Part shown: piece after piece, positions 35,706 to 59,104 of the stretch
Position numbering within the stretch: position 1 is the stretch's first letter
Layout of the letters: each line of letters begins with the position of its first letter
Assembly: GCA_041651455.1 (NCBI GenBank)
Contig: JBAZJG010000005.1
Location: forward strand, 3,882 to 67,881
DNA from: Candidatus Omnitrophota bacterium
Lineage (GTDB): Bacteria; Omnitrophota; Gorgyraeia; Pluralincolimonadales; Pluralincolimonadaceae
Direction of reading: 5' to 3'
DNA: 64,000 nt
Translations under genes and position numbers: made by a program
Notes under the pieces: model-generated
What the model saw: only the letters and a program-made list of their open reading frames with translations
Database searches by the model: none
Told to the model about the DNA's origin: nothing

Positions 35706-35734
35706 TTGACGACCTTCCGTACGCGTAATACAAT
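35706..35734 (+). promoter_or_regulatory. Sigma70-type promoter upstream of the HTH / TolC-like / giant gene operon.
   Basis: TTGACG (35706-35711), 17-nt spacer, TACAAT (35729-35734). RBS ggaggaaggag lies before ATG 35767. Confidence 0.45.
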
Positions 35735-35766
35735 TATATACGAAATATGGAGGAAGGAGAGTCTAT

Positions 35767-35961
35767 ATGGACATAGGCGCGAAATACATAACTATGGAAG
35801 AGGTCGTGAATTACTTAAGCCTTAGCGAGGGCAGTATCCGTAAACTTATACGGGAACAGAGTTTCCCGCACGTAAAGGTGCTCAGGAAATATCTGTTCAA
35901 TAAGCAGGATGTCGACGCGTGGCTTAAGATGCATTCACAGGGCCTAAGGGCAAATAAGTAG
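35767..35961 (+). CDS. Small helix-turn-helix DNA-binding protein (excisionase/MerR-like HTH_17 type).
   Basis: 'ITMEEVVNYLSLSEGSIRKLIREQSFPHVKVLRKYLFNKQDVDAWL' is the typical excisionase-family HTH. Confidence 0.6.
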   Translation: MDIGAKYITMEEVVNYLSLSEGSIRKLIREQSFPHVKVLRKYLFNKQDVDAWLKMHSQGLRANK

Positions 35962-35985
35962 CATTACCTAACTATTAAAGGGGTC

Positions 35986-38900
35986 ATGCTAAGCCAAAAT
36001 TGTAAGAAATATATTATATCATTATCCATCGCGCTCGCGATGTCGTTTCCGTCGATGTCGTGCCCCGGGGAATTAGATTACAATAAGCTTTCGCTTGAAG
36101 CCGCGCTGAACAGGATGTATGAAGTAGACCCCGAAATACAGATAAGCAGACTCGCATGCGATGCGTCCCTCCTCGAGATAAAAGCAAGGAAACTCGATAC
36201 ATTCATGCCGAAGCTCAGCGTCGGCGTCAGTATAGTCAAGCCGGTCGATATCTTCACGAAACTTGACCAGCAAAAAGAGATGTTCTTTGAACAGCAGGTT
36301 ATCATAGAATTCGCCGTGACCTCAAACAGCTTCAACCATATCCTTAAGGACAGGAAAGGGTACGAAGCTAGCATGCTCGAATTGAAGCAGGCGGTTTCCG
36401 AAAGGAGCCGTGAGCTCATCACCGTATATTACGCCGTCGCAAGGGCCCAGGAGAATTACAGGTCCAGCTGCGATAACATCGAGACAGTCGAGAAGGTCCT
36501 GAAGATGGTCGAAAACAGCAATGAATATACGGACGTCGAAAAACTCGAGATAAGGAACTATCTTGCCGTGGTCACGGAAGAGAAGTTAGGCGCGCTGAAT
36601 ACGCTCATCAATACGAGAAGAGACCTCCGCGGGCTTCTCGGTCTGGAGAACAGGGAAGATATCGATATAACCGTCGAGGAACTGCCTGATAATATCAACA
36701 ATGACATCGCCTTCTATGAAAACCCGTTGATAAGGCCGGCGGATTACACCCTCGACATATATAAGAAAAGGGGTGAGGCTGCGGACGTGGCCTCCCGGAT
36801 CAGCGCGTCTCCCTTATTGAAATTTTCTTCCGCGACGATCCTCGGCATCGCCGAGGGCAGGTTCACGAAACTCCAGAAGAAAGTGATAACTGATACGGGA
36901 GTGGAGTTGCATATAACCGACTTTGGCTATACCGGAGGCCTCAATGATGTAAGCAAGATTAATTCGCAGATAGCGAGGTTGGAGGTATTGAAAGCAGAAG
37001 AGGACCTTGAGTATTCGGATTTAATAGCGAACGGCAAACTGGCCGAACTAAGCGGCCTAATAGATAATTACAGGGAATACATAACGAAGACGGAAGACAT
37101 GTTGAGGATGTTCAGGGAACGCCTCTCCTTGCCGGTCATCGAGATAATAAGGATGAACGATAATCTCTATAAGGCCAAGTATGCGATGCAACAGGCGCTC
37201 GTCGATTATACGGTCATGCTCTCGAACCTTAAAGGTGTCGAGCTGAAACCCGAACAGACCAGCCCTCAATACCAGGATATGAGCTTGGAAGACCTGCTTG
37301 CGAGGGGCGAGAGGAGTGACATCCTGACCGTCAAACAGATATCCGAGAAGAAGATGAGGATGGAAAACGTCAGGATCAACGCGACAAAGGCCGGATATTT
37401 CCCGAAGATCACCGGTGCGGCCATACTTGAGAACGCGAACATAGACGGCGTGCCGTCGCAGGCTACGAGGGCTTACGTTGCGCTTGAAGGGCAGCTCTTT
37501 AACTTCAAGAACGGGCAGGCCATCAGGGCAGCGAAGGCCAGCATGGAAGAAATCAGGTACGAGGGCGCCGCGCTGCAGAACGTGGTCGCGGATGAGATAA
37601 TAAAGAACTACCTGTTCATATTAAGGAGCAAGAATACCTTAAAATGGCTGAACGAGATCAAGGGGATAAAAGACGACATAATACGCGATATGCTGGAAAA
37701 TATGGAAGGCAAGGGCCCCAAATATAGTAATTCGGATATACTGCCGCTGGTCCTGCAGCAGATGGAGCTGGACAGGATGATGGCGGATGCCGAGTTCTCG
37801 CTGGCGGTCGTCGAGTATAGCCTCAAGAAATGGACCGGCATACCGCTCAACGAGACGATAAGCGTAAAGGAGCTCCCGGCGTTCGGGGAGGACGAAGGGC
37901 TCTCAGGGTTCATGGCGCTGATCCGGTCCAAGGTGGCGCCGTATTTCGACGGTAAGGCGCCGGTAAAACAAGCCCTGAGCGCCGTCGAAAAGAACAGGGC
38001 GGAAGAGGCGCGGGCCGTCGCGTATGATGGGGCGCTGCTCCAGGTAAAATGCGAGACGAAGGGCATGGAATATAAGGGATGGCATGATCCCGACAGGCAG
38101 GTGTCTTTCAGCGTCTCCGTGCCGTGGGGCGACCGCAGGGAAAAGATAGCCAGGTCTGAGGCGGCGAGGACCCGCATCAAGTCGGAGATCGAGTATTTGA
38201 AGAGCATGGATGCTTATGAAAAAGAGAGGTTATCCGTCAAGACCTCCTACGATTCATCGAAAGCGCTCCTTGAAGACCTGCGCAGCAAGAAGGAGAATAT
38301 GGAATCGCAGTACAGGATAACCGAGGAACTTTACCGGTTCGGCGGCCGGACAAAGAAGCAGATGGTTGATTCCAAGCTGGATTTCATAGTAGCGCAGATG
38401 AGCTATGAGGAAGCCGTCCTTGACAACTATTACCACAATGCGAGGGAGCTGCTGGTAGTGGAGAAAGATGCGGAACCCGAAGGCAGCGAAAGGATATTGC
38501 TGGCCGGATTGCAGGAAGCGATAGACCTTGCCATGCAGAACAGCCGCGAAATAAGGAAATACGAGGAGAGCCTCAAGCTCGAGAAGGAAACATTGGATTA
38601 TTACAAGACGGTGAGGATAAAGGGCGATATCGGAGGGGATTCCTATATAATAGATAACAAGGGCTGGAATGAGACAAAGAGGGTCAAGACCGCGGGGATC
38701 GTCGCGACCGCCGACATTGACCTCGTGAACAAATATATGGTGAAAGTCCAGCAGCGCAGGATCGAGCTTGCCGAAAAGGACCTCGAGCAGGCGAAGTTCG
38801 ACCTGACCCTGAAGGTCGCGGATGCCTACTCGGGCTACCTCGGTTCGCTCGCGGAGACCTCGGAAGTCCGCAAGGAATACGAGAGGCAGAAGACGGTCCT

Positions 38901-39795
38901 GGCGGAAATGGAAGAGCTTTTCAAGGCGAAAGCGATAGCGCATGTGGACCTGCTGAAGCAGAGGGAGTTCGTAGAGAGCCTTCTGCAGAAGTACATCGAC
39001 ACCAACAGGTATACCGAAGGGCACAGGAACAGCCTCGGCATTGCCGTCGGAGGCCTCGACCCGAGGTTTTCGGTCGTGAACACCGAGGTTTACGACAAGT
39101 CCGCCCGGCGCGTCGCGCTTACGGAAGATTTCGAGATCAAGCAGAGGCTGTTGGACGAGCTTACATCCGCGAGGCAGGCGCTCCAGGGACTGCTGCAGGA
39201 TGATCTGCTCAAGCGCGCGGAGATCAAACTCGACATGGCCAGGCTTGATACCCAAGCTATATCAAAACAGGTAAAGACGCTCGCGGTCAACCTCGAGTAC
39301 ATATACCTTACGGATTTCATGGGACTAATAATGAGGGATGAAGCCGCCTTCTCGCGTTATGACAACATGTCGGAGTTTTTCTCGCTGAACTCCATAGACC
39401 AGATATTCAATCCCGCCACCGGGACTAAGGCGAGGATTGCGGCGATAAGCGAGAAGGTCGCGGCATTAAGGTCGAAGTCATATACGAAAAACGTTGTCCA
39501 GGACGCGTTGAGGAGGTTTACCGATTACCAGGTGGCCGTGGCCGATTACGCCAACTACGAGAAGAACGAAACGGTGCTGGAAAACGAGATGGCCGAGAAG
39601 ATGCGTATGGAAGAGGCGGCAGGGAACACGGCCCTGATCAGGCAGAGGGAGCTAAAAGAGACGATACTTAACAACAAGATAAAGAAGATACAGGCATTCT
39701 ACAGGATGATGAAATTTATGAACGAACTGGACCGTTATCTGATAAGATATACTTCAAAAGGCATAGAATCATACGTAACATTCGTCACAAAATGA
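35986..39795 (+). CDS. Unusually long (1269 aa) TolC-like outer-membrane channel protein (OEP family repeats plus extensions).
   Basis: Signal peptide. 'LSLEAALNRMYEVDPEIQISRLA' is a TolC-type N-terminal motif. Recurrent OEP-type coiled-coil/beta segments ('AIRAAKASMEEIRYEGAALQNVVADEIIKNYLFIL', 'EELYRFGGRTKKQMVDSKLDFIVAQMSYEEAVLDNYY'). The stop overlaps the next start (ATGA). Confidence 0.55.
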   Translation: MLSQNCKKYIISLSIALAMSFPSMSCPGELDYNKLSLEAALNRMYEVDPEIQISRLACDASLLEIKARKLDTFMPKLSVGVSIVKPVDIFTKLDQQKEMFFEQQVIIEFAVTSNSFNHILKDRKGYEASMLELKQAVSERSRELITVYYAVARAQENYRSSCDNIETVEKVLKMVENSNEYTDVEKLEIRNYLAVVTEEKLGALNTLINTRRDLRGLLGLENREDIDITVEELPDNINNDIAFYENPLIRPADYTLDIYKKRGEAADVASRISASPLLKFSSATILGIAEGRFTKLQKKVITDTGVELHITDFGYTGGLNDVSKINSQIARLEVLKAEEDLEYSDLIANGKLAELSGLIDNYREYITKTEDMLRMFRERLSLPVIEIIRMNDNLYKAKYAMQQALVDYTVMLSNLKGVELKPEQTSPQYQDMSLEDLLARGERSDILTVKQISEKKMRMENVRINATKAGYFPKITGAAILENANIDGVPSQATRAYVALEGQLFNFKNGQAIRAAKASMEEIRYEGAALQNVVADEIIKNYLFILRSKNTLKWLNEIKGIKDDIIRDMLENMEGKGPKYSNSDILPLVLQQMELDRMMADAEFSLAVVEYSLKKWTGIPLNETISVKELPAFGEDEGLSGFMALIRSKVAPYFDGKAPVKQALSAVEKNRAEEARAVAYDGALLQVKCETKGMEYKGWHDPDRQVSFSVSVPWGDRREKIARSEAARTRIKSEIEYLKSMDAYEKERLSVKTSYDSSKALLEDLRSKKENMESQYRITEELYRFGGRTKKQMVDSKLDFIVAQMSYEEAVLDNYYHNARELLVVEKDAEPEGSERILLAGLQEAIDLAMQNSREIRKYEESLKLEKETLDYYKTVRIKGDIGGDSYIIDNKGWNETKRVKTAGIVATADIDLVNKYMVKVQQRRIELAEKDLEQAKFDLTLKVADAYSGYLGSLAETSEVRKEYERQKTVLAEMEELFKAKAIAHVDLLKQREFVESLLQKYIDTNRYTEGHRNSLGIAVGGLDPRFSVVNTEVYDKSARRVALTEDFEIKQRLLDELTSARQALQGLLQDDLLKRAEIKLDMARLDTQAISKQVKTLAVNLEYIYLTDFMGLIMRDEAAFSRYDNMSEFFSLNSIDQIFNPATGTKARIAAISEKVAALRSKSYTKNVVQDALRRFTDYQVAVADYANYEKNETVLENEMAEKMRMEEAAGNTALIRQRELKETILNNKIKKIQAFYRMMKFMNELDRYLIRYTSKGIESYVTFVTK

Positions 39796-42700
39796 GCGGG
39801 AATATGTCAAAGAGCGGCAAAAAAATAGCCATAGTGCTGGTAGCGGTCGCGGCCATCTTCATCACGGCGCGCTCGTGTATGCACCGTTCCGCGGATGTAC
39901 GGGACGCGGCCGGCACACAGCAACCGATCGCAGCCGGTGCCGCGCGTACAGATAACCCGCTCGACCATGCGCGGCAGCGCGATTCGGCTTTAAATGCCGG
40001 AGAATTGATATCCTTCATATTGGAATGGACCAACCCGGAGACCGGGCTGGTGCCTACAATCATATCAAAGAGCGGGCAAAAGAACCCTTTTGCCGACCTG
40101 TCTTATACGTACGCGCAGGCGGTTGCGCACCAGAACCTCATAATTGCGGGATCAAACGACAGGTCGCAGGCCGCCGCGGAGATATTCAGGCAGAGGGGAG
40201 AGACGAGGGATATACCTAACTGCTTCAACGTCCGGACCGGGTTTAGCGAGGACCCTTTGGTAACTGCCGGGCCAAACGCGTACTGGGGCATAAGTTTCAT
40301 AAGGGAATACAAGGCAACCGGCGACGAAAAGTGGCTTACGGCAGCAAAGAGGCGCGCAGATTTCCTGCTAAAACTGCAGACGGATGACGGCGGGATAAGA
40401 AAGAACCCCTTCCAGGGCAACGCGGAATATAAAGCCAAGTCGACAGAGGAGAACCTCGATTGCTATGCGCTGTTCGTGATGCTTTCCGATATCACAAAGG
40501 AGAATAAGTATGCGGTTGCCGCGTCCGATGTGCTCAAATGGCTTGCGGAAAGCGGTGTATATGACATAGAAGCGGGTTATTTTATCGCAGGCACATCGGA
40601 TGATCAGATGAACCCGTTGTATGCAACAGACGCGAACGCGCTCGCTATCATAATACTCGGCCCTGAGCTGCTCGATTCAGAAGGCAAGGTCCGGTTCGGC
40701 GGGGCCGGCACAAGCCGCAGGATCCTGGACAGCCTTGATGCGGCCAAGGTCAAAGTAGATTATCTCCATCCGTCCGGCGTCACGATAAAAGACCTAGAAG
40801 GATTCGATTTTACCGACAAATTCGGCAGGCCAGGCAGGAAACCAGTCCTGAGCCCCGAGTTCACTTCCCAGGCGGTGCTGGCATATCTGGTAATGGCAAG
40901 GCACGCGAAAGAGAAAGGAGATGCCGAGTATTCGGCCAAGCTGATCGAAGACGCGCGGCGTTATCTCGATAACCTAGGGAGGATGGCAGCGCGCACAGGG
41001 AAGTCGGCGTCACTGCCTTATGCCTCGGAGAAAGGGATTAGGCGTTATCCGTTCGACAACTGGCTGACGCCGCAGGGAGATGCGGATATATCGGCGACAT
41101 GGGCGTCATTCCCATTATCGGGATTCAATCCGTTCGCGCTTGAAGGGTTAGGGCTGCGTGATGCGCTGAAGGACTCCGCGGAATGGATGTCCGATACGGG
41201 TGAGGTCATAAAGCCCGAAAAAGCTTTCGTTATCCCCGAACCGGAGAAGATCATATCCGAAGCAGAGCTCATTGCCCAGCAGGAAGCGGCAAGGGAAGAG
41301 GCGATGAGGAAGCCGATCGTGTATTATAAGGTCCTTTACGACCAGGTCAATAAGGATGCGACTATTGCGAGAAGGAGAGTGATAGCCGTCCTGATGACAA
41401 GCTACAATTGCTGGTTCGACGGCGTGCTGGATACGGCGTCGCGGGACTATGACGTGATCGGCGTTGACGGGAATTATAAGGTTTTCTACAAAAGATTCCA
41501 GGACCTTCCGGAAGCGACAAGGAAAGCCGTGCAATCGGAATATGCCTATTTTGACGAGCCAACCGGCATAAAATGGAGGATGGCCCCGAAATACAATTTG
41601 TATCTAGACGGGCAGTATAAGCCGTATTATGCCTTCGAGATAGACGGCGATTACAACATAATCAGGCAGTTTGCGTCCGAGAGCGACATCCCTGAAGAGA
41701 ACAGGGCCGATCTCAAGAGCGCAAAAGCCCAATTCCAGTCCTCCCGCGGCCTTCCCGAGGGCCATCTTATAGCAAGGTATTTCACCGCGCTCGAAGTGGA
41801 CGACGAGATGAATATAACGAACTATTACGAAGCGATAGATGACCTTCCCGGCCTTGTCTCTAAAGTCCCGATAAGCGAGGATGAGTTCAGGAGGTATATA
41901 AAGGCGAAGGACTGGGAGAGGCTGGACCTGGTCTCTGCTGGCATCATACCTGATGAAAAAGGGATGCTTGCCGTACAGGAGAGAGGTATGTATTACGCAA
42001 GGGTCCTCGGCCTCGATGAGACGAGGAGGCTGCGTGTCGGTGGTGTCTCCGTAGCCAGCGGACGCGAGATAATCATGGGAACGAGGTTCAGTCTTACTAA
42101 CTGGCGCATAGGAGAGGCATCGAAAACTAACGCCGTCAAATACGAGATCGGGCTCATAAAAGGCATGGTCATAAAGCCGCGTGAACAGTTTACCGGAAGC
42201 GGCCCTTCACCGACGCAGCCGCTTTGGATATACCTCGGGGAAGATATGATCGCGTCCGAGACCGCGGAATTCAAGAGAAGGCTCATGAGCTTGTTGAAGC
42301 GCATCAAATCAGAGAAGGATGCGCAGACACGCCTCGAGCTCGTGGAACAATACGACCGGTTGGCCGGAGAGCTCGCCTGGTACGACGAGAACGGGTTCAT
42401 ACATGTTATCTATTATGGTGTAAAAGCTGCCGAAAAGAGGTTCGGGGATTTTGCGTCGGCAAAGGCAAGAGCGGAGAACAGCCTGAGGACCTACGAATCG
42501 ATCCTGGGTAAGGACCAACTCGGGCGGGACCTGCGCGATTCATACGGCCGCGTATGGCTAAAGGTCATAAACGAGGCGACCGGACGCATATTATACGTCG
42601 AGGTCTATGATATGGCGGGAAATCTCGAGACGATATATTCCGGGAAAATCGATATCGACCCGCTAACTAAGGAGGTCAGGTCCGAAATAAGGACCGATCT

Positions 42701-45700: not shown

Positions 45701-48700
45701 CAGGCCCGCGCTGAGGGATGCGGCCGGGAGCAAGGAGCTCAGGCGCTCGATCAGGCTGTTCTGGATAATGTTCGGCTCGGCTTCTTATCTCTGGGGCCTC
45801 TTCAGCATATTCGTGATAATCTGGACCGTCAGGATCATAAGCAAACTCACGTTCGTGAGCGCCGGATGGGGCCTGTTCATCAACGTGAGCGCGCTGCTGC
45901 TCACCTTCACGTTCATACTGTCGAGCTTCTTCTCGCTCTTTTATATCATAATAGCGTTGATAGGGTTTTACCGCGGCAAGAGGGAAGGCATCGGCCAGGT
46001 CATATCATGGGCCCAGATGAGGAGGAAGTTCGAGGCATCCAGGCGGTGCTTCGGGCAGATCATCACTCCGTCCGAAGCGTTTTGGAAATCATATTGGAAT
46101 TCCATGATAACGGAACTCTACGATTATTATGTCATCAGTGCCGCGGAGAGGGATGGGCTGGTTTATTCGGAAAAGAACGCGGTGCCGAAGCTATCCTCAC
46201 AGCCGCGTGCCGAAGAGGCCTCCGAAAGGATGCGCCTGTACGTAAACAGCTGGCTTATGGAGATGCCGAAGGCATGCTCCTGGAACGACCTGCCGACCTT
46301 CACGGCAATGGTAACGGCTTTCAATGAGCCGGTAAGCTTCTCGTTCGACGAGCTGAACGGCTGCGACAGGGGGGCCGAGGTCACGAGGCTTAACCACCTG
46401 ATCGGGTTCTATAGGCCGCAGTGGGAAGAATTTGTCGGCAGGCTAAATTCCGCCGACCTCGGGCATTATATCACGAGGGAACAGCTAAAGCTGCTCTTCG
46501 GCCTGAAGAAGCTGCCCGAAGGGCTCCCTGAACAACTGAAGGAAAAGATCAGGAAGTGGGCAAACCTGACGGTCCAGTGCGTCGAGAAGACGGCCGTGGA
46601 GGTATACAGGATACGCGACGCTTTCGCGGCATACGCACGGGCCTGCTATCCCGGAATCTCCGAGAAGGCGGTATCGGAGATGGTCTCTGATAAGGTCCAG
46701 ATACTGCTGAATTACGAGGGCTACCACAGCGCCGCGACCCGCGATTCCGACAAGGAGGCCCTGAGGAGGATCATGAAGGAGCTCCCGTTCCTTGACGTAT
46801 ACTGGGCGGCGCCGGAAGGCGACGAGAAGGGAACGGACCGCGGGCTCCACCGCTATAACCCGTCGACAGACAGCATAGAGCTTATAGAGACCGCGCCGTT
46901 CACCTCCACGGTCAAGAAAGGCAAGCCGAGCGGGCTGAACCAGGCGCTGCCGTTCGTGAAGGGCGAGACGGTCCTTTTCTTCGACGCGAACTGCTCGGTC
47001 AGGATAGAGGACGCCCTGAAACTGCCCGTCGCGCTTTCCGAGTTCGCGGACGACCCGTCGCTCGGCGAAGTCCTGTTCGCGGAATACATATTCAACAAGA
47101 ACTACTCCTGGATCTCCCAGGCGATAGGTTTCAACGAGGAGACCTTCGTTTCGGTGACCCAGAGGACGCTTAACATCTTCCAGGCCTGCGGTTTCTACGG
47201 CCACAGCGCGATAATAAAGACAGACATGATAACCGCGGCCTGCGGCCTGCCGCAGGATTACATATCGGAGGACATACTCCTTGCCACGGCATTATGGAAA
47301 AAGGGCCTGAGGACCTCGCACAAAGAATACCTGACCTTCGGGAAGGGCAGGGAGACCTCGTATTTCACGAGCCTCGTGCCGCTGACGAAGTGGGCGATGG
47401 GTTCTTCCGACGCCGCGATAGGCCGCGTCATGCGCGGCATACTCGATTCGAGGAATGTCCATGTCGCGCAGAAGTTCATGCTGATGTTCGGGTTCTCGTT
47501 CTTCTACCAGACCCCGCTGATGTTCGTGATAAACTTCCTTTACCTGTGGCTGATGATCTGCTGGGGCATAAACGGTTTCATGGCGGTCCCGTACCCGATA
47601 GTCTTCGGTATCCTCGGCCTGCTCTTCAACCAGGCGATAACCGCTACCGGCGTCGCGTACCTCGTGGAACATTACGGTTTCAGGAAGTCCTTCTCCGCAT
47701 ACATGAAGCTTGTCGCGAAGAACCATTTCTTTTACGCGTCGGTCATACCCGCGTACGCGTTCGGTTTCCTCGCAGGCCTGAAGGGAAAGGCAGTCTTTAT
47801 CATAAGCCCGAAGGGATGGAACCTGGGCCACCTGCCCCTCAAGACGATATGGGGGGAGAAGAGGGCCATACTGAAGGCGGCGCTCTTCAGCACCATGGTA
47901 GGCCTTCCGCTCGCATACCTGTTCGTGTCGACCGAGACGGTCCCGTTATGGATAAGCCCGTTCATACCGTTCCTGCCGTTCGCCGTAGTTGCGGCTATGT
48001 ACTTGGCCGGCCTCAGGTGGAAAGAGACGGGATTGGGTTTCCTGAAGGATTGGCGCGACGAGATAGTCCCCGACGGCGACATCCGCAAGATGTCCGTCAT
48101 AAAGCTGCAGATGATATACGCGATGGTCTTGCTTGTCTTCACGGGAGTCGGCTTCGTCATGTGGGGCCTTATATTCTCATCCCTGGCGGTCAAGGCGCTG
48201 TTCATATTCTCGGTCCTTTACATAAGCACGACGCTGTCGTTCATAATAATGCCGCTCTTTGCGCATTCGCAGCCGGTCGCGCTGTTCAAGGAGATAACGA
48301 TATCCAAGTTCTGGAATTACGCGGTGATACCGATGCTGCTGGCGAGCATTGTTCTCGGCGCGGTCTCTATAATGTCGAGCCCCGCGACGGCATCGCCCGA
48401 ATCCGTCGTCTATACGCTTCTCGGCATATCGATGCTTGTCGGATGGGCGCTGCTTAAGTGGAAGCTCAGCGGGTATGCGAGGCTTGACAGGTGGCTCAGG
48501 CAGAACCTGGCCGGATACGCATCCTCTTCGCCGGTACGCAAAGCCGACCTCATGGATGACATATACTTCGCTCACCAGGAGTTGATCCAGAGCGACAGGC
48601 AGGAGGAGCTTAAATACAGCAGGAAGGCCGGGAAGGCCAAAGCCGTGTTCGTGTTCACGCTGTCGGCCGCGTTGCTGATGTATTTCACGTCGGAATTCTA

Positions 48701-49019
48701 CCCGAGGTTCTTCAGCAACTGGATATGGATCGTTATCGCGATCGAGGCGGTCTACCTGCTGATATTGAACGTCGAGCATACTAAGGGCGACAGGATATAC
48801 CTGGGCAAGTTATTCAGCGAAATAATGATTAATGATTTCAACAGGCTCAATGAGAATGTCAGGGCCATGGAAGACATCTGGAAGAAACTGGACAGGATAT
48901 ACAAGGCCAAGCTTATCAGGACCTATGAGGACGAAGTCAGGGCCAAGAGGGCGATGACCGTTTACATGTCCAGGTGCATAAGGTCGTGGGAGGCGGGACA
49001 GCAGCAGAAGCCTACTTAG
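39792..49019 (+). CDS. Giant (3075 aa) membrane protein fusing an exported region to an OpgH/MdoH-like GT2 glucan synthase. Order: N-terminal signal-anchor, exported region with an (alpha/alpha)6-like module, re-entrant transmembrane segment, cytoplasmic linker, transmembrane cluster, GT2 catalytic core, C-terminal multi-transmembrane bundle.
   Basis: N-terminus 'KKIAIVLVAVAAIFITA'. (alpha/alpha)6-like helical hairpins ('YWGISFIREYKATGDEKWLTAAKRRADFLLKLQTDDGG'). Transmembrane segment at aa ~1598 'PLAFFAFVAGLFFLAGYV'. GT2 motifs 'TAFNEP', 'GKPSGLNQAL', 'LFFDANCS', 'GHSAIIK', 'SEDILLATALWKKGLRT', 'TKWAMG'. About 8 C-terminal transmembrane helices. Confidence 0.7.
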   Translation: MSGNMSKSGKKIAIVLVAVAAIFITARSCMHRSADVRDAAGTQQPIAAGAARTDNPLDHARQRDSALNAGELISFILEWTNPETGLVPTIISKSGQKNPFADLSYTYAQAVAHQNLIIAGSNDRSQAAAEIFRQRGETRDIPNCFNVRTGFSEDPLVTAGPNAYWGISFIREYKATGDEKWLTAAKRRADFLLKLQTDDGGIRKNPFQGNAEYKAKSTEENLDCYALFVMLSDITKENKYAVAASDVLKWLAESGVYDIEAGYFIAGTSDDQMNPLYATDANALAIIILGPELLDSEGKVRFGGAGTSRRILDSLDAAKVKVDYLHPSGVTIKDLEGFDFTDKFGRPGRKPVLSPEFTSQAVLAYLVMARHAKEKGDAEYSAKLIEDARRYLDNLGRMAARTGKSASLPYASEKGIRRYPFDNWLTPQGDADISATWASFPLSGFNPFALEGLGLRDALKDSAEWMSDTGEVIKPEKAFVIPEPEKIISEAELIAQQEAAREEAMRKPIVYYKVLYDQVNKDATIARRRVIAVLMTSYNCWFDGVLDTASRDYDVIGVDGNYKVFYKRFQDLPEATRKAVQSEYAYFDEPTGIKWRMAPKYNLYLDGQYKPYYAFEIDGDYNIIRQFASESDIPEENRADLKSAKAQFQSSRGLPEGHLIARYFTALEVDDEMNITNYYEAIDDLPGLVSKVPISEDEFRRYIKAKDWERLDLVSAGIIPDEKGMLAVQERGMYYARVLGLDETRRLRVGGVSVASGREIIMGTRFSLTNWRIGEASKTNAVKYEIGLIKGMVIKPREQFTGSGPSPTQPLWIYLGEDMIASETAEFKRRLMSLLKRIKSEKDAQTRLELVEQYDRLAGELAWYDENGFIHVIYYGVKAAEKRFGDFASAKARAENSLRTYESILGKDQLGRDLRDSYGRVWLKVINEATGRILYVEVYDMAGNLETIYSGKIDIDPLTKEVRSEIRTDLEYDKETLQVVGSHTYRTDENGDWVSDISESIFKGYTPDKKYFVSEVHIFDRDEDGRIIFEDGKARYTKKIEYYTPEGDISAQMVKNIITIVKYGANHEVVKEVFLERPGKVLTGENTNLDNLTQGLAWVRRYKTTGKILTFKDSLVKSLTSLPEEERETAALLILNRLGAEKVGRISDILMLEENEVTNNLTGDPAAAGEAPYFVFYEPGDSLGRQRLIVRGGTMEVPVDWIAEADIPSKTLTFNLAGELVSISDVDSSVRADSVLPPGYIERMAPLGINADTLLPQMKKRIFRMVTGEDGLPHFTNTVAITTVSYMIPDDVLGRELLNVKFVMLGDETTLHSGSALKLKRNIFGRDTLIESWKDERGEARTRAIAKKEDTVVYEWYKEGLGTGELRERLKSECGKIVKRKILEEALENVAEAPFGTMPGYHVIKPNGRIGEIKYFSGTVEYPRSVFSHPGVKVPYETEAPPFKLPDGPLIRGVKYGVLNSDYAFYDVHSLSGQLIVLERRFIILRLMNILPVQGGRQTEYYDPLVPYSYLRPIKIERDFRPGTQPEGTQPGTQIVAVFIGDASIYHRNGWQTQTFLERRPFDIEHWIRSDYEFDDNGVYKFKKEHIESSSIYLMRSIKWQKPLAFFAFVAGLFFLAGYVSRSRLKAGKRSRMAVARAASRPFSREVLARLSVPEELKAACIRVYEGHEPVSELFAASEKVFRPRIEECLRGFGADPAGHTASVNVLLDRIACRIGREDINLSNLFAVEAKEFGEWSKKNGHSVNIAAGRPGRDDLSVIVLFRLVFDESMEFRAAVTGFRNYLLDKSLGLLDEGRKGDILREIRGDTLAFLEALRPGYDRKLGLTKEYIFTYDDMSELFEGKRPGFIASFSQLAGKTAEQKLSWLASRAGKDAAADVKSYKSYIWLKTFPDKAGVPQFVWNLRRFWEFLVPMFAAVTLGGVAIALKRIPFAQRLSGAMGPIGATFVEVTALIFIGLIITMAFKRRTLGDYRPALRDAAGSKELRRSIRLFWIMFGSASYLWGLFSIFVIIWTVRIISKLTFVSAGWGLFINVSALLLTFTFILSSFFSLFYIIIALIGFYRGKREGIGQVISWAQMRRKFEASRRCFGQIITPSEAFWKSYWNSMITELYDYYVISAAERDGLVYSEKNAVPKLSSQPRAEEASERMRLYVNSWLMEMPKACSWNDLPTFTAMVTAFNEPVSFSFDELNGCDRGAEVTRLNHLIGFYRPQWEEFVGRLNSADLGHYITREQLKLLFGLKKLPEGLPEQLKEKIRKWANLTVQCVEKTAVEVYRIRDAFAAYARACYPGISEKAVSEMVSDKVQILLNYEGYHSAATRDSDKEALRRIMKELPFLDVYWAAPEGDEKGTDRGLHRYNPSTDSIELIETAPFTSTVKKGKPSGLNQALPFVKGETVLFFDANCSVRIEDALKLPVALSEFADDPSLGEVLFAEYIFNKNYSWISQAIGFNEETFVSVTQRTLNIFQACGFYGHSAIIKTDMITAACGLPQDYISEDILLATALWKKGLRTSHKEYLTFGKGRETSYFTSLVPLTKWAMGSSDAAIGRVMRGILDSRNVHVAQKFMLMFGFSFFYQTPLMFVINFLYLWLMICWGINGFMAVPYPIVFGILGLLFNQAITATGVAYLVEHYGFRKSFSAYMKLVAKNHFFYASVIPAYAFGFLAGLKGKAVFIISPKGWNLGHLPLKTIWGEKRAILKAALFSTMVGLPLAYLFVSTETVPLWISPFIPFLPFAVVAAMYLAGLRWKETGLGFLKDWRDEIVPDGDIRKMSVIKLQMIYAMVLLVFTGVGFVMWGLIFSSLAVKALFIFSVLYISTTLSFIIMPLFAHSQPVALFKEITISKFWNYAVIPMLLASIVLGAVSIMSSPATASPESVVYTLLGISMLVGWALLKWKLSGYARLDRWLRQNLAGYASSSPVRKADLMDDIYFAHQELIQSDRQEELKYSRKAGKAKAVFVFTLSAALLMYFTSEFYPRFFSNWIWIVIAIEAVYLLILNVEHTKGDRIYLGKLFSEIMINDFNRLNENVRAMEDIWKKLDRIYKAKLIRTYEDEVRAKRAMTVYMSRCIRSWEAGQQQKPT

Positions 49020-50391
49020 TATTGTAGCTTTCTTTCAAAACCTCGTGGTAGTAGAGCCAATCGTCGCTAACCTTCTTCATCGCGCTGTAGAGGTTCCTGT
49101 AATCGTCGTAGATATCGCATTCGAACTCGATATTACGCCTTCCGCTCAGGAAATGCGCGAAGAGCTTGTAGTTCATCTCCTTGCGCAGGAAGTTCTTCTT
49201 CTTGAGGGCATAGAAGAGCGATCCGCTGCCTTCGAAGCAGTTCATTATCCTTACCCATTCGCAGGCGATGAATATGCAGTTCTTGTAGCTTCCGAACAGG
49301 TCGACCGTGTCGCAGTCGATGAATACGCATGATTCGAGCTTGCTCGACGGTTTTATCTTCTTGCTCCTGACGAAATAGTTGCCGTTCTCGTCCGGTTTGG
49401 ATATCTGCGCGGTCAGCTTGCGCAGCAATTCGAGATATGTCATTATGTTTGACGCCCAGTCGATCCAGTAGCCCCTGGCGATGGCGCCGCCGACGCTTAT
49501 CTCGTATTGCTGAAGGCATTCCCTCATTGCGAGCTGTATCTTCGATAGCGCCTTCTTCTCCAGGACGAGCGACTCGCAGACCAGCTTGTTGAAGCTCCAT
49601 TCGGTCGCGTTCAGGTGCGCGATGAAGTCCTTGTTCTTCTCCTTGGAGCAGAAGAGGTCGACCGCGTTCTGCAGCTTATCCAGGCTGTCTTTTGTGGTGA
49701 ATAGCTGGAACGTATTCGCGAGCGTCATACCCTTTGTATATTTAGGTATCAATTTTTCGTCGAAGGTCTTTTCGTAAAAAGAGGATATGCCGTTATTAGA
49801 GTCGAGCTTAGCCGTGCCGAGGCTCCCGAGGGCCCTGTTTATCTGTATCGGGGTCAGCAGCATGGAAGCCGTATGCGAGTTAAGCGATCTCAGCAGGCCG
49901 TTTATGTCCACATCGGCGTAATCGAAACACTGGTCGATCGGAAGTATGATAACCGTGTTCTTCAAAAGCGGGATGCTCTTGGCGATGCACGGAAGAAGCA
50001 TGTCCGGCGCCCGGCCTTCGGGGAACCTTATGCTCGCCTTTGACGGCGTGCCGAATTCATAAGAGAGGGGGAATATCCTCGTGGCGAGGCCGGCGTCATG
50101 GATATATACAATAGTATCGAAGGAATCAAGCTTCTTCTTGGAAAGGAGCCTCTTTATACGCTCGTGGGTCTTGAGGTAACCGGTAAGGTTACCGCGGGTC
50201 TGGCCCATCTCGGCCATCCCGACAAGCTCGACGTCTATCGTCTTGTTATACCGCTCCCTGAGCTTCTTCTTGAAGAGCTGTTTGAGGTCGAGAGAGAACT
50301 CAAGCTTATCATAAGAGTTCAGTACGAGCAGTACCCTGTCCGCGACCTCATTTTTTACTTTTAGGTTCTCCAGTACGGTAGTCTTAGCCAT
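49012..50391 (-). CDS. Hypothetical protein, convergent to and overlapping the giant gene end by 8 nt. The C-terminal region has hexapeptide-repeat-like (left-handed beta-helix) character. Possibly sugar-nucleotide related. Visibly lower GC than its neighbours.
   Basis: 'MAKTTVLENLKVKNEVADRVLLVLNSYDKLEF...'. C-terminal 'CVFIDCDTVDLFGSYKNCIFIACEWVRI'. K/N/F/Y-rich composition. Confidence 0.45.
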   Translation of the reverse strand: MAKTTVLENLKVKNEVADRVLLVLNSYDKLEFSLDLKQLFKKKLRERYNKTIDVELVGMAEMGQTRGNLTGYLKTHERIKRLLSKKKLDSFDTIVYIHDAGLATRIFPLSYEFGTPSKASIRFPEGRAPDMLLPCIAKSIPLLKNTVIILPIDQCFDYADVDINGLLRSLNSHTASMLLTPIQINRALGSLGTAKLDSNNGISSFYEKTFDEKLIPKYTKGMTLANTFQLFTTKDSLDKLQNAVDLFCSKEKNKDFIAHLNATEWSFNKLVCESLVLEKKALSKIQLAMRECLQQYEISVGGAIARGYWIDWASNIMTYLELLRKLTAQISKPDENGNYFVRSKKIKPSSKLESCVFIDCDTVDLFGSYKNCIFIACEWVRIMNCFEGSGSLFYALKKKNFLRKEMNYKLFAHFLSGRRNIEFECDIYDDYRNLYSAMKKVSDDWLYYHEVLKESYNTK

Positions 50392-50398
50392 TTACGAA

Positions 50399-50427
50399 AA
50401 TATACCCTTTTTTATTAAAAAAGTCAA
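50399..50427 (-). promoter_or_regulatory. Sigma70-type promoter on the minus strand for the 49012-50391 gene. The -10 lies ~7 nt from the ATG (leaderless-type).
   Basis: Minus strand reads TTGACT, 17 nt, TATATT, ttcgtaa, ATG. Plus-strand coordinates: -35 at 50422-50427, -10 at 50399-50404. Confidence 0.4.
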
Positions 50428-50442
50428 GCATTTTGGCCTGCC

Positions 50443-50471
50443 TTGACATTTCTAACCCTATGTGGTATACT
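50443..50471 (+). promoter_or_regulatory. Sigma70-type promoter for cvpA.
   Basis: TTGACA (50443-50448), 17-nt spacer, TATACT (50466-50471). RBS aggag lies before ATG 50492. Confidence 0.5.
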
Positions 50472-58942: not shown

Positions 58943-59019
58943 GGGCCCATAGCTCAGTTGGTTAGAGCAGCTGACTCATAATCAGCGGGTCATAGGTTCA
59001 AGTCCTATTGGGCCCACCA
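58943..59019 (+). tRNA. tRNA-Met (anticodon CAT; elongator-type, or possibly tRNA-Ile2).
   Basis: Cloverleaf parses as GGGCCCA/TGGGCCC acceptor stem, D-loop AGTTGGTTA, anticodon loop CTCATAA, T-loop TTCAAGT, 3' CCA encoded. G1-C72 pairs, so it is not initiator-like. Confidence 0.85.
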
Positions 59020-59027
59020 AATTTTTC

Positions 59028-59104
59028 GGGCGATTGGCTCAGTTGGTTAGAGCGCCACATTCACATTGTGGAGGTCAAAGGTTCGAATCCTTTATCGCCC
59101 ACCA
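59028..59104 (+). tRNA. tRNA-Val (anticodon CAC).
   Basis: GGGCGAT/ATCGCCC acceptor stem, anticodon loop TTCACAT, T-loop TTCGAAT, CCA encoded. It lies 8 nt after tRNA-Met. Confidence 0.85.

What the first reader, a model, noticed from the sequence alone, without database searches (positions are those of the whole stretch)
35706..50427. Locus organisation: promoter, excisionase-type HTH, TolC-like, giant synthase, and a convergent lower-GC gene
Clean -35/-10 hexamers (TTGACG, 17 nt, TACAAT) precede a 64-aa HTH protein of the excisionase/MerR type. The 1269-aa gene follows 24 nt later, and then the 3075-aa gene with a 4-nt overlap. This is consistent with one ~13.3-kb transcript, with a putative small regulator gene leading the operon.

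The locus is bounded downstream by a convergent gene (49012-50391). That gene overlaps the giant gene's last 8 nt and looks compositionally distinct: AT-richer, with K/N/F/Y-rich protein. Possibly a sugar-nucleotide-related beta-helix protein, acquired separately.

The flanks (MORN/GGDEF upstream, cvpA/nif3/dnaG downstream) are core genes. The locus therefore looks like an accessory insertion, without recognisable integrase or transposase.
Basis: partly seen in the sequence, partly recalled or inferred. Interest (0 to 1): 0.65.

Follow-up and report, generated by a model that had tools for sequence, protein, structure and literature searches.

The report
Bacterial FKS-like glucan synthase export module
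This is a conserved gene set in Candidatus Omnitrophota, not a recently inserted island, built around a 3075-residue membrane enzyme whose catalytic core resembles the fungal and plant beta-1,3-glucan synthase, together with a triple-length TolC-type outer-membrane channel, a sugar-nucleotide-forming enzyme and a cyclic-di-GMP cyclase.

Summary

The evolutionary reading fails.
- The 459-aa gene has native GC3 (0.74) and native codon usage. It is 89% identical where DnaG is 78%. It lies by the synthase gene in four different gene orders and in a second phylum.
- The "core flank" genes (dCache-HAMP-GGDEF and a MORN-repeat protein) travel with the TolC-like and giant genes in every clade.
- Only the HTH gene is clade-specific.

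What the parts are:
- The giant protein is a complete FKS1/GT48-like synthase. Its family profile hits FKS1 at E 7e-20 and BcsA at 2e-4. Twelve of 15 FKS1 active-site residues are identical. It sits behind a ~1570-aa periplasmic domain.
- The TolC-like protein holds three protomer equivalents in one chain.
- The 459-aa protein has an ADP-glucose-pyrophosphorylase fold (pLDDT 89.6).

Best reading: a cyclic-di-GMP-linked, envelope-spanning glucan synthesis and export machine. The polymer, the c-di-GMP control and the single-chain channel are inferred. I found no description of it in the searchable literature. Novelty: new variant of a known kind.

The parts
32877..34454 (+). Membrane diguanylate cyclase of 525 aa. 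It has two transmembrane segments, a periplasmic dCache_1 domain, a HAMP domain and a GGDEF domain. The active-site motif is GGEEL, with an RESD (RxxD) inhibition-site motif five residues upstream.
   Evidence: Pfam GGDEF 1.1e-42, dCache_1 6.6e-17, HAMP 4.8e-10. Transmembrane segments. The gene is adjacent to the synthase gene in every clade: 86, 65-70, 49 and 43-44% identity.
34436..35668 (+). Exported protein of 410 aa made of about twelve 30-residue MORN_2-type repeats. It has an N-terminal signal peptide or membrane anchor, and its gene overlaps the cyclase gene by 19 nt.
   Evidence: Pfam MORN_2 35.4 bits against a cutoff of 29.6. Hydrophobic segment at aa 1-26. The gene always lies directly after the GGDEF gene in relatives.
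35706..35734 (+). Sigma-70-type promoter, TTGACG-17 nt-TACAAT, upstream of the HTH gene.
   Evidence: Both hexamers and the stretch from the -10 hexamer to the Shine-Dalgarno sequence are identical in L004 although dS exceeds 1.2.
35767..35961 (+). Small 64-aa HTH_17 (excisionase/MerR-type) DNA-binding protein. It is present only in the window's clade.
   Evidence: Pfam HTH_17 1.5e-11 and TIGR01764 8.3e-12. It is 75-95% identical across clade A, with dN/dS 0.09. It is absent from clades B, C and D.
35986..39795 (+). TolC-type outer-membrane protein of 1269 aa with a signal peptide and three tandem protomer-equivalents (aa 1-428, 429-835, 836-1269).
   Evidence: Pfam OEP 8.8e-23 for the whole protein. 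Each third alone passes the OEP model: 48.5, 36.3 and 35.7 bits against a cutoff of 22, each starting near profile position 1. It is always directly upstream of the synthase gene.
39792..49019 (+). Giant synthase of 3075 aa. The likelier start is 39804, giving 3071 aa.
39888..41201 (+). Giant protein aa 33-470: periplasmic (alpha/alpha)6-type domain with a partial GH76 match.
   Evidence: Pfam Glyco_hydro_76 1.3e-10 over aa 162-271. PDB alpha-1,6-mannanases at 2e-5 over 87 residues.
41202..44594 (+). Giant protein aa 471-1601: conserved periplasmic region of unknown fold.
   Evidence: No Pfam or PDB match. Column identity is 0.67-0.71, as high as in the glycosyltransferase domain. The AlphaFold model was unusable, with pLDDT 44.5.
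44595..49016 (+). Giant protein aa 1602-3075: FKS1/GT48-like module. It comprises a transmembrane segment, a cytosolic accessory-like domain (1623-1904), about six transmembrane segments, the glycosyltransferase domain (2062-2560; nt 45975-47471), about 10-12 further transmembrane segments and a C-terminal tail.
   Evidence: Pfam Glucan_synthase 2.4e-24, 86.1 bits against a cutoff of 37.2. The family profile hits FKS1 at E 7e-20 over FKS1 residues 694-1273, and BcsA at 2e-4. Twelve of 15 FKS1 active-site residues are identical. Hydropathy.
49012..50391 (-). NDP-sugar pyrophosphorylase-like protein of 459 aa, with a nucleotidyltransferase domain and a C-terminal beta-strand domain.
   Evidence: AlphaFold model pLDDT 89.6. 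Foldseek top hits are ADP-glucose and GDP-mannose pyrophosphorylases, E 6e-10 over about 450 columns. Eleven of 20 family members hit Pfam NTP_transferase. Invariant residues include A-G-x-x-x-R-x-F-P-L, K118, D153 and E207-K208.
50399..50427 (-). Sigma-70-type promoter of the 459-aa gene, TTGACT-17 nt-TATATT. It ends 7 nt before the ATG, so the mRNA would have essentially no leader.
   Evidence: It is conserved in L004 and L020.

Best explanation
The window carries a conserved six-gene module of Candidatus Omnitrophota that most likely makes a glucan and passes it through the whole cell envelope.

**Proposed mechanism**
1. The 459-aa enzyme activates a hexose-1-phosphate to an NDP-sugar.
2. 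The cytosolic GT48/FKS1-like domain of the giant inner-membrane protein polymerises the sugar and threads the chain through its own transmembrane channel.
3. The ~1570-aa periplasmic part of the same protein, which includes a GH76-like alpha/alpha barrel, receives, guides or trims the chain.
4. The 1269-aa TolC-type protein provides the outer-membrane exit. Its three protomer-equivalents in one chain would form a whole channel from a single polypeptide.
5. The adjacent dCache-HAMP-GGDEF cyclase, paired with a periplasmic MORN-repeat protein, senses something outside the cytoplasm and sets local cyclic-di-GMP, which switches the machine on.
6. In the window's clade, a 64-aa HTH_17 protein with its own conserved promoter has been inserted in front of the TolC-like gene. 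It probably acts as a small transcription regulator.

**Shown here**
- The gene coordinates and the conserved promoters.
- The domain families, the FKS1-like active site and the pyrophosphorylase fold.
- Three OEP units in one chain.
- Gene linkage across clades and purifying selection on every gene.

**Inferred**
- The polymer.
- Cyclic-di-GMP control and its receptor.
- The single-chain channel.
- The adaptor role of the periplasmic domain.
- Co-transcription and the role of the HTH protein.
For: **Synthase**
- Pfam Glucan_synthase scores 86.1 bits against a cutoff of 37.2, while GT2_3 falls just under its cutoff.
- A profile of 12 homologs hits FKS1 at E 7e-20 across FKS1 residues 694-1273, which spans the last transmembrane helix before the GT domain and the whole GT domain. 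Cellulose synthase BcsA scores 2e-4.
- FKS1 residues E851, K1082, D1102, N1104, E1155, E1173, H1195, E1221, D1222, K1246, R1248 and K1261 are functionally implicated in PMC10499315. They are identical in the window protein and invariant or nearly invariant in its family.
- Hydropathy gives a membrane anchor, about 1570 exported residues, then a cytosolic domain, about six transmembrane segments, the GT domain and 10-12 more segments, as in FKS1.

**Substrate supply**
- The 459-aa protein has a confident ADP-glucose-pyrophosphorylase fold.
- In clades C and D a phosphoglucomutase gene lies beside the module.

**Exit channel**
- Three independent OEP units lie in one chain, and the gene is always immediately upstream of the synthase gene.

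**Linkage**
- The GGDEF, MORN, TolC-like and synthase genes occur together in all four clades found, in two orders and in different genomic neighbourhoods.
- The 459-aa gene is next to the synthase gene in three Omnitrophota clades and in Candidatus Auribacterota, where the locus tags are JW728_00555 and JW728_00560.

**Selection**
- dN/dS is 0.03-0.09 for every gene for which it could be computed, including the HTH gene.

**Precedents**
- Rhizobial BgsBA needs TolC and cyclic-di-GMP for beta-glucan production (PMC13438883).
- A cellulose synthase-HlyD-TolC model has been proposed in cyanobacteria (PMC12430437).
Against: - No biochemical or expression data exist, and the organism is known only from metagenome bins.
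- No PilZ domain or other recognisable cyclic-di-GMP receptor is present in the giant protein, so the link to the cyclase rests on gene neighbourhood only.
- Three of the 15 FKS1 active-site residues differ (D1080 to K, K1172 to N, N1220 to S). The sugar and the linkage cannot be read from sequence.
- No membrane-fusion adaptor gene lies in the 64-kb window, unlike the Bgs and Xcs systems.
- The three TolC-like units resemble each other only weakly (hhalign E 0.01-0.09), and no structure model of this protein could be made.
- The periplasmic domain could not be modelled (pLDDT 44.5).
- The GH76 match covers only about a quarter of that fold, and no catalytic carboxylate pair could be shown.
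- Clade B loci have no 459-aa gene nearby.
Confidence: 0.62

Rival explanations
1. The stretch 35706-50427 is an accessory island inserted between core genes (MORN/GGDEF on one side, cvpA/nif3/dnaG on the other). It is led by an excisionase-type regulator, and the convergent gene was acquired separately.
For: - GC dips at both ends of the stretch: 0.46-0.49 around 35.0-37.0 kb and 0.49-0.51 around 48.5-51.0 kb.
- The HTH gene belongs to a family named after excisionases and has low GC3 (0.60).
- The module sits in different genomic neighbourhoods in distant clades.
Against: - GC3 of the three large genes (0.70, 0.72, 0.74) and their codon usage match the window.
- Gene order from ETF to DnaG is identical in all clade-A loci with giant-protein identity of 74-90%, including seven GTDB species representatives.
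- The GGDEF and MORN genes move with the module rather than staying with the flanks.
- The 459-aa gene is more conserved than DnaG and is linked to the synthase gene in another phylum.
- No integrase, transposase or repeats mark the borders.
Confidence: 0.06
2. The gene products are as assigned, but the machine does not export an extracellular glucan under cyclic-di-GMP control. Alternatives are a periplasmic or cell-wall-associated glycan, a polymer of another sugar, or a role in attachment to or attack on host cells. In this reading the GGDEF gene is a neighbour that uses the module only as one of several outputs, or is itself regulated by it.
For: - No cyclic-di-GMP receptor domain was found in the synthase.
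- Three active-site positions differ from FKS1.
- The huge conserved periplasmic domain with a glycoside-hydrolase-like barrel suggests work done in the periplasm or on a partner cell.
- The same GT48-like module is embedded in Omnitrophota proteins of 5600-7900 aa. Such proteins have been discussed in connection with predation (bioRxiv 10.1101/2023.11.21.568195).
Against: - The strict adjacency of a TolC-type channel gene in all clades argues for passage across the outer membrane.
- The strict adjacency of the cyclase, with overlapping start and stop codons in L008, argues for a dedicated signalling input.
- The active site is closest to a UDP-glucose-using beta-glucan synthase.
Confidence: 0.22
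3. The 64-aa HTH gene is a decaying remnant of a mobile element (an orphan excisionase) with no role in the locus.
For: - The family assignment is TIGR01764 'excisionase family'.
- The gene is present only in clade A.
- GC3 is 0.60 and codon usage deviates, although the gene is short.
Against: - It is 75-95% identical across clade A, 81% where DnaG is 78%, with dN/dS 0.09.
- Its promoter and leader are conserved where synonymous sites are saturated.
- Its position between the MORN and TolC-like genes is fixed.
- No integrase or attachment repeats are nearby.
Confidence: 0.05

Closest known systems
Fungal FKS1/GSC2 and plant callose synthases (CAZy family GT48, beta-1,3-glucan synthases)
   Same: - The glycosyltransferase domain is clearly homologous: Pfam PF02364 above its cutoff, and the family profile hits FKS1 at E 7e-20 across FKS1 residues 694-1273.
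- Twelve of 15 active-site residues are identical.
- The overall order is similar: cytosolic accessory domain, about six transmembrane segments, GT domain, many further transmembrane segments.
- A faint collinear match exists to the FKS1 segment just before its first transmembrane helix.
   Different: - It is bacterial, from a double-membrane cell.
- It is preceded by a membrane anchor and about 1570 exported residues that FKS1 lacks.
- No Rho1 partner exists; the gene lies beside a cyclic-di-GMP cyclase instead.
- It is paired with an outer-membrane channel gene.
- Three active-site residues differ.
- The product is unknown.
Bacterial cellulose synthase BcsA-BcsB-BcsC and other cyclic-di-GMP-dependent, synthase-dependent exopolysaccharide systems
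   Same: - The logic is the same: an inner-membrane processive synthase that is also the translocon, a large periplasmic partner, an outer-membrane exit, and a linked diguanylate cyclase.
- BcsA is a detectable but distant relative (E 2e-4).
   Different: - The synthase is of GT48 type, not GT2.
- It has no PilZ domain.
- The periplasmic partner is fused to the synthase.
- The exit is TolC-type rather than a TPR-plus-beta-barrel porin.
Rhizobial mixed-linkage beta-glucan system BgsBA with TolC, and the proposed cyanobacterial XcsAB-TolC cellulose system
   Same: A beta-glucan synthase is coupled to a TolC-type channel and controlled by cyclic-di-GMP (PMC13438883, PMC12430437).
   Different: - Those use GT2 synthases, a separate HlyD-type adaptor, and the ordinary housekeeping trimeric TolC encoded elsewhere.
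- Here no adaptor gene lies in the window.
- Here the channel gene is dedicated, adjacent and three times the normal length.
TolC / outer membrane factor family (PF02321)
   Same: It has a signal peptide and OEP repeats above the Pfam cutoff, and public records name it 'TolC family protein'.
   Different: It has three protomer-equivalents in one 1269-aa chain, whereas TolC is a homotrimer of chains of about 450 aa. I found no description of such a fusion in a broad review of these systems (PMC8277102; only the first 300,000 characters are held).
ADP-glucose pyrophosphorylase GlgC and related sugar-1-phosphate nucleotidyltransferases
   Same: - The predicted two-domain fold is the same.
- Counterparts of the nucleotide-binding loop, the catalytic Asp and the E-K sugar-phosphate motif are invariant in the family. 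The mapping onto GlgC residues is from my own knowledge.
   Different: - Only 12-14% identity.
- The window protein itself misses the Pfam NTP_transferase model, and the glgC equivalog model scores 13.5 bits against a cutoff of 424.9.
- It forms a small separate family of 22 clusters, found almost only next to GT48-like or GT2 synthase genes.
Small stand-alone HTH_17 / excisionase-family proteins
   Same: Same domain and size. Some members, such as Streptomyces BldC, act as transcription regulators rather than excisionases (own knowledge, not tested here).
   Different: No integrase partner, a chromosomal operon context, and no PDB relative detectable by sequence.

Membership tests
GT48 (FKS1 / callose synthase) | Match to the family model PF02364 above the curated cutoff | tested here: met
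   86.1 bits against a cutoff of 37.2, aa 2139-2587, profile positions 4-496 of 819. All 12 full-length homologs carry a precomputed PF02364 hit.
GT48 (FKS1 / callose synthase) | Closer to solved GT48 enzymes than to GT2 processive synthases | tested here: met
   Family profile: FKS1 at 7e-20 and GSC2 at 5.5e-19, against BcsA at 2e-4. Single sequence: 5e-10 against 1.5e-5.
GT48 (FKS1 / callose synthase) | Active-site residues shown to matter in FKS1 (PMC10499315) | tested here: met
   Twelve of 15 are identical: E2179, K2378, D2398, N2400, E2431, E2449, H2471, E2493, D2494, K2518, R2520, K2533. Three differ: K2376, N2448, S2492.
GT48 (FKS1 / callose synthase) | Architecture: cytosolic accessory domain, six transmembrane helices, GT domain, about eleven further helices | tested here: inconclusive
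   Hydropathy gives a compatible pattern, and there is a faint collinear match to FKS1 434-465. The helices were not counted with a dedicated predictor, and no structure model of this part was made.
GT48 (FKS1 / callose synthase) | Synthesis of beta-1,3-glucan from UDP-glucose | not testable with these tools
   This needs an enzyme assay and linkage analysis.
TolC / outer membrane factor | OEP repeats and an export signal | tested here: met
   PF02321 8.8e-23. The N-terminal sequence MLSQNCKKYIISLSIALAMSFPSMSC has the form of a signal peptide.
TolC / outer membrane factor | One protomer of about 450 aa with two OEP repeats, assembling as a homotrimer | tested here: not met
   Three protomer-length units lie in one chain. 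Each passes the OEP model on its own, and five of the six expected repeats were detected.
TolC / outer membrane factor | 12-stranded barrel plus helical tunnel | not tested
Sugar-1-phosphate nucleotidyltransferase (GlgC-like) | Nucleotidyltransferase fold followed by a C-terminal beta-helix domain | tested here: met
   Model pLDDT 89.6. There are 220 PDB matches at E <= 0.001, the top ones being ADP-glucose and GDP-mannose pyrophosphorylases over about 450 columns.
Sugar-1-phosphate nucleotidyltransferase (GlgC-like) | Match to PF00483 or to the glgC equivalog model | tested here: inconclusive
   The window protein has no PF00483 hit, but 11 of 20 family members do (best 2.2e-8). The glgC model scores 13.5 bits against a cutoff of 424.9, so it is not a GlgC equivalog. 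The family profile hits E. coli GlgC residues 134-210 at 0.002.
Sugar-1-phosphate nucleotidyltransferase (GlgC-like) | Pyrophosphorylase activity and sugar or nucleotide specificity | not testable with these tools
   This needs an enzyme assay.
Excisionase (recombination directionality factor) | HTH_17 / TIGR01764 domain | tested here: met
Excisionase (recombination directionality factor) | Partner integrase and attachment sites of a mobile element | tested here: not met
   No integrase or transposase family is listed among genes within 10 kb on either side. No flanking repeats were found.
Cyclic-di-GMP-controlled synthase-dependent exopolysaccharide systems | Dedicated diguanylate cyclase linked to the synthase | tested here: met
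   The GGDEF gene is adjacent in all four clades.
Cyclic-di-GMP-controlled synthase-dependent exopolysaccharide systems | Recognisable cyclic-di-GMP receptor (PilZ or equivalent) on the synthase or a partner | tested here: not met
   No PilZ Pfam hit and no RxxxR...D/NxSxxG motif in the giant protein. A non-canonical site cannot be excluded.
Genomic island / accessory insertion | Deviating codon usage, mobility genes, and presence or absence among close relatives | tested here: not met
   GC3 and codon usage are native. No mobility genes are present. The module is present in the same place in all clade-A loci.

The most novel reading that the evidence does not exclude
Omnitrophota (and Auribacterota) hold a large, so far undescribed bacterial branch of the FKS/callose-synthase (GT48) family. 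It comprises hundreds of clusters at 50% identity, many inside giant proteins. In this locus the enzyme is the motor of a new type of envelope-spanning secretion machine. That machine has a self-contained periplasmic bridge and a single-chain, pseudo-trimeric TolC channel, and is switched by cyclic-di-GMP through a receptor that is not a PilZ domain. If these bacterial enzymes branch at the base of the eukaryotic family, they would give a prokaryotic origin for the enzyme that builds fungal walls and plant callose.
Probability: 0.3. Interest if true: 0.85.

Novelty: new variant of a known kind. Interest (0 to 1): 0.62.

Why it matters
- **Family range.** Beta-1,3-glucan synthases of the FKS/callose type are treated in the literature I could search as eukaryotic enzymes regulated by Rho GTPases. 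They are the target of echinocandin antifungals. A bacterial relative with a nearly intact active site would be a tractable model for the family and a lead on its evolutionary origin.
- **New solutions to export.** The locus suggests two new ways to move a polymer across two membranes. One is a synthase with its own 1570-residue periplasmic extension in place of a separate adaptor. The other is a TolC-type channel made from one chain.
- **Omnitrophota biology.** These are tiny, uncultured and possibly host-dependent cells known for giant genes. The module gives a concrete, testable function to one recurrent giant-protein domain.
- **Annotation.** Public records call these proteins 'glycoside hydrolase family 76', 'glycosyltransferase family 2' or 'hypothetical'. 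These names miss the main feature.

Tried and rejected
1. **AlphaFold model of the periplasmic part of the giant protein** (aa 401-1600, 12-sequence alignment). Mean pLDDT was 44.5, so it was unusable and not searched.
3. **Internal similarity of the three TolC-like units by hhalign.** It was in register but weak (E 0.01-0.09). The claim rests on the Pfam hits per third instead.
4. **PDB sequence search for the HTH protein.** Only chance hits to Pumilio.
5. **PDB sequence searches for the 459-aa and TolC-like proteins.** Nothing significant. The gp41 hits of the 459-aa family profile are chance matches to a short Trp-rich helix.
6. **Operator-like repeats around the HTH promoter.** Only short chance-level repeats.
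7. **Hairpin joining the HTH stop codon to the TolC-like start codon.** It is no more stable than shuffled sequence (z = -1.07).
8. **The 2809-aa protein next to a distant 459-aa homolog (L010).** It is unrelated to the giant synthase.
9. **PilZ-type motif in the giant protein.** None found.
10. **Adaptor (HlyD), GT2, phosphoglucomutase, ABC or small OEP genes of the other clades.** None is present in the 64-kb window.
11. **GTDB scan.** It used only N-terminal peptide patterns, so it returned only close full-length relatives. It says nothing about the wider family.
12. **GH76 catalytic Asp-Asp pair.** The HMMER alignment starts after the place where I expect it, so its presence could not be decided.
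13. **Literature searches** for GT48 in bacteria, glucan synthase in Omnitrophota, and fused TolC found no description. The library lacks most subscription journals.

Full report
**1. The observation**

The ORF table confirms four ORFs:
- 35767-35961 (64 aa)
- 35986-39795 (1269 aa)
- 39792-49019 (3075 aa)
- 49012-50391 on the minus strand (459 aa)

The stated 24-nt gap, 4-nt overlap and 8-nt overlap of the convergent ends are all present. The consensus scan finds TTGACG-17-TACAAT at 35706-35734. It also finds a minus-strand TTGACT-17-TATATT at 50427..50399 in front of the convergent gene.

Such consensus matches are only mildly enriched in the region: 21 found against 12.5 +/- 3.5 expected. 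The real support comes from comparison with a relative (locus L004) whose giant protein is 74% identical and whose synonymous sites are saturated (dS 1.2-3.4). In L004 both hexamers and the stretch from the -10 hexamer to the ribosome-binding site are identical. The spacer keeps its length but has changed, and the DNA further upstream has diverged. The intergenic region between the 459-aa gene and cvpA is conserved in the same way.

One correction to the spacing is likely.
- ATG 39792 has no ribosome-binding site.
- ATG 39804 has GGGA just upstream.
- ATG 39804 is the start used in the public record (3071 aa).
- It also coincides with the conserved N-terminus of the homologs.

The TolC-like and giant genes are therefore probably separated by 8 nt rather than overlapping.

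**2. Organism and relatives**

The giant protein is 100% identical to a protein of a Candidatus Omnitrophota metagenome bin. It has eleven further full-length relatives (42-88% identity), all from Omnitrophota or unnamed metagenomes. A scan of one genome per GTDB species found eight loci in seven genomes. All are Omnitrophota by content, although two are titled 'uncultured Planctomycetia'.

**3. What the proteins are**

*HTH protein.* It matches Pfam HTH_17 (1.5e-11) and TIGR01764 'excisionase family' (8e-12).

*TolC-like protein.* The 1269-aa protein matches the outer-membrane efflux protein model (8.8e-23). When cut into thirds, each third passes the model on its own, at 48.5, 36.3 and 35.7 bits against a cutoff of 22. 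Each match starts at the beginning of the profile. An ordinary TolC protomer is about 450 aa and trimerises. This chain therefore holds the equivalent of a whole trimer.

*Giant protein.* Its layout and matches are as follows.
- **Layout.** It has an N-terminal membrane anchor and about 1570 exported residues. A second membrane segment is followed by a strongly basic stretch, and the C-terminal half is rich in membrane segments.
- **Single-sequence matches.** The C-terminal half matches Pfam Glucan_synthase (PF02364, 86.1 bits against a cutoff of 37.2). The GT2_3 model falls just below its cutoff.
- **Family-profile matches.** A profile of the twelve homologs hits yeast FKS1 at E 7e-20 over FKS1 residues 694-1273. 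That is the last transmembrane helix before the catalytic domain plus the entire catalytic domain. Bacterial cellulose synthase BcsA scores 2e-4.
- **Active site.** Of the 15 FKS1 residues that Zhao et al. assign to the active site and test by mutation (PMC10499315), 12 are identical in the window protein. They are invariant or nearly invariant in its family.
- **N-terminal part.** It has a partial match to GH76 alpha-1,6-mannanases (Pfam 1.3e-10; PDB 2e-5 over 87 residues). The next 1100 residues match nothing, yet are as conserved as the catalytic domain.

*459-aa protein.*
- **Sequence.** The protein itself has no Pfam hit, but 11 of 20 members of its family hit NTP_transferase.
- **Structure.** An AlphaFold model is confident (pLDDT 89.6). 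Its best structural matches over its whole length are ADP-glucose and GDP-mannose pyrophosphorylases (E 6e-10).
- **Invariant residues.** The family alignment shows A-G-x-x-x-R-x-F-P-L, K118, D153 and E207-K208 as invariant. From my own knowledge of GlgC and RmlA, I take these as the nucleotide loop, the catalytic lysine and aspartate, and the sugar-phosphate E-K motif.

**4. The neighbours belong to the module**

I fetched contigs encoding homologs and compared them by tblastn. Four arrangements emerged.

| Clade | Giant identity to window | Gene order |
|---|---|---|
| A | 74-90% | ETF - GGDEF - MORN - HTH - TolC-like - synthase - 459 (convergent) - CvpA - NIF3 - DnaG |
| B | 55-56% | GGDEF - MORN - TolC-like - synthase |
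| C | 42-43% | 459 - (small OEP, opposite strand) - TolC-like - synthase - GGDEF - MORN |
| D | 49% | synthase - GGDEF - short MORN - 459 |

- **Clade A:** the order is identical to the window in every locus that is long enough.
- **Clade B:** start and stop codons overlap in L008. There is no HTH gene and no 459-aa gene nearby, and the flanks differ.
- **Clade C:** the module lies next to phosphoglucomutase and ATP synthase genes.
- **Clade D:** the module again lies next to phosphoglucomutase.
- **A second phylum:** in a Candidatus Auribacterota bin, a 459-aa homolog and a short (1447-aa) GT48-like gene carry consecutive locus tags.

Four genes thus always travel together: the cyclase, the MORN-repeat protein, the TolC-like protein and the synthase. 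The 459-aa gene joins them in most lineages. The HTH gene joins them in one.

**5. Composition and selection**

- **Convergent gene.** Its total GC is low (0.508). Its GC3 is 0.741 and its synonymous codon usage is typical, with a Kullback-Leibler distance of 0.045 from the window. The shift lies in codon positions 1 and 2 and reflects a protein rich in K, N, F, Y and I.
- **Large genes.** The giant gene (GC3 0.72) and the TolC-like gene (0.70) are also native.
- **HTH gene.** It deviates (GC3 0.60), but it has only 64 codons.
- **Identity.** Between the window and L004, the values are 89% for the 459-aa protein, 86% for the cyclase and 81% for the HTH protein. They are 78-79% for DnaG, 74-76% for the giant, and about 62% for the TolC-like and MORN proteins.
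- **dN/dS.** It is 0.03-0.09 wherever dS could be estimated.
- **Mobility genes.** No integrase or transposase appears among the genes within 10 kb on either side, and the wider window is housekeeping. It holds EF-G, RuvABC, SecDF, ETF, DnaG, RpoD, MraZ and PBP genes.

Over deeper time the module has changed place in the genome, as operons do.

**6. How it most likely works**

The parts fit the logic of synthase-dependent exopolysaccharide secretion.
- An NDP-hexose is made by the 459-aa enzyme. In two clades a phosphoglucomutase gene lies alongside.
- The FKS-like domain polymerises it on the cytoplasmic face and threads it through the enzyme's own membrane channel, as in FKS1 and BcsA.
- The chain is handed to the large periplasmic domain.
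- It leaves through the dedicated TolC-type channel.

Precedents for coupling a beta-glucan synthase to TolC and to cyclic-di-GMP exist. One is the rhizobial BgsBA system (PMC13438883). The other is the proposed cyanobacterial XcsAB-TolC system (PMC12430437).

This module differs from those precedents in four ways.
- The synthase is of the GT48 type.
- No HlyD-type adaptor gene lies in the window. I therefore infer that the fused periplasmic domain takes that role.
- The channel is a triple fusion.
- No PilZ domain or motif is present, so the receptor for the cyclase's signal is unknown.

The cyclase has an intact GGEEL motif and an RxxD site at the canonical distance (for neighbouring sequence; for the protein). 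The HTH protein has a conserved promoter and is under purifying selection. It is best read as a small regulator added in one lineage, but its target is unknown.

**7. How wide the family is, and whether it is known**

I ran an exhaustive HMMER search with the last 1200 residues against 1.84 billion cluster representatives. It found 392 proteins at E <= 0.001, 194 at <= 1e-10 and 60 at <= 1e-30. Many are 2000-7900 aa long. Of ten looked up, eight carry a source name. Six of these are Omnitrophota, one is labelled only 'bacterium' with a Candidatus Auribacterota cluster member, and one has a truncated Candidatus label. Nearly all are called 'hypothetical protein'.

Full-text searches gave no paper describing such proteins. 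The searches covered:
- GT48 together with bacteria or prokaryotes;
- glucan synthase together with Omnitrophota;
- the two Omnitrophota giant-gene preprints;
- fused TolC.

Recent FKS reviews contrast FKS1 with bacterial enzymes only through BcsA. The searchable library lacks most subscription journals, and Pfam hits to PF02364 are already stored for these proteins in public resources. The claim is therefore 'undescribed as far as I could search', not 'unknown to databases'.

**8. Verdict**

The functional labels are mostly right. The evolutionary interpretation (an island, a separately acquired convergent gene, core flanks) is wrong. What is there is a conserved, probably cyclic-di-GMP-linked, envelope-spanning polysaccharide synthesis and export module. 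It is built on a bacterial FKS-like synthase and a single-chain TolC-type channel. This is a new variant of a known kind of system, with an interesting evolutionary angle.

Noticed in passing
window 39792-39806: The giant gene probably starts at ATG 39804, which has GGGA upstream, is conserved in homologs and is used in the public record. It probably does not start at ATG 39792. The TolC-like and giant genes would then be 8 nt apart rather than overlapping by 4 nt.
   Followed up: partly
window 50389-50427 (minus strand): The promoter of the 459-aa gene ends 7 nt before the start codon, and there is no ribosome-binding site. The mRNA would be essentially leaderless. The whole divergent intergenic region up to the cvpA promoter (50443-50471) is conserved in relatives.
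   Followed up: partly
window 35959-35991: An inverted repeat pairs the HTH stop codon region with the ribosome-binding site and start codon of the TolC-like gene. The predicted hairpin (-11.8 kcal/mol) is no better than shuffled sequence (z = -1.07).
   Followed up: yes
P0040, P0047, P0074 and others: The same GT48-like module sits inside much larger proteins of 5600-7900 aa. P0047 is named Omnitrophota, while the names of the other two are truncated or absent. It may therefore be a recurrent building block of the 'giant genes' of Omnitrophota.
   Followed up: partly
L018 and L022 (isolate STD1_86): One metagenome bin holds two copies of the whole locus on different contigs, both about 79-80% identical to the window. 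They are either paralogs or two strains binned together.
   Followed up: no
L016, L020; P0199: Two GTDB records titled 'uncultured Planctomycetia' and one 'Dehalococcoidales' TolC protein (77% identical) carry this Omnitrophota locus. This is probably mislabelling or mis-binning.
   Followed up: no
L010 1416-11290: In another Omnitrophota bin, a distant (36%) homolog of the 459-aa protein lies directly after a 2809-aa ORF. That ORF has no Pfam hit and no similarity to the giant synthase.
   Followed up: partly
L012 3360-12716: A 43% homolog of the 459-aa protein lies in a polysaccharide locus of a different kind. The locus has UDP-glucose dehydrogenase, alginate lyase, OEP, a membrane-fusion protein and a GT2 synthase. 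This suggests that the family serves synthase-plus-TolC systems in general.
   Followed up: no
L001 22214-23614, L007 22231-23631, L023 11670-13082: A phosphoglucomutase/phosphomannomutase gene lies beside the module in clades C and D. This fits a supply line from hexose-6-phosphate to the NDP-sugar. No such gene is in the window.
   Followed up: partly
window 58943-59104 and 60279-60612: tRNA-Met (CAT), tRNA-Val (CAC) and a bacterial class A RNase P RNA (215.5 bits) lie downstream of the locus.
   Followed up: yes
window about 60565-61002: By correspondence with locus L014, a stand-alone 145-aa PilZ gene lies between two T2SSE-type ATPase genes, about 10 kb downstream of the module. Its called start would overlap the end of the RNase P RNA. 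It is not conserved with the module.
   Followed up: no
window 3437-6553: A 1038-aa ORF upstream of EF-G has no Pfam family on record.
   Followed up: no
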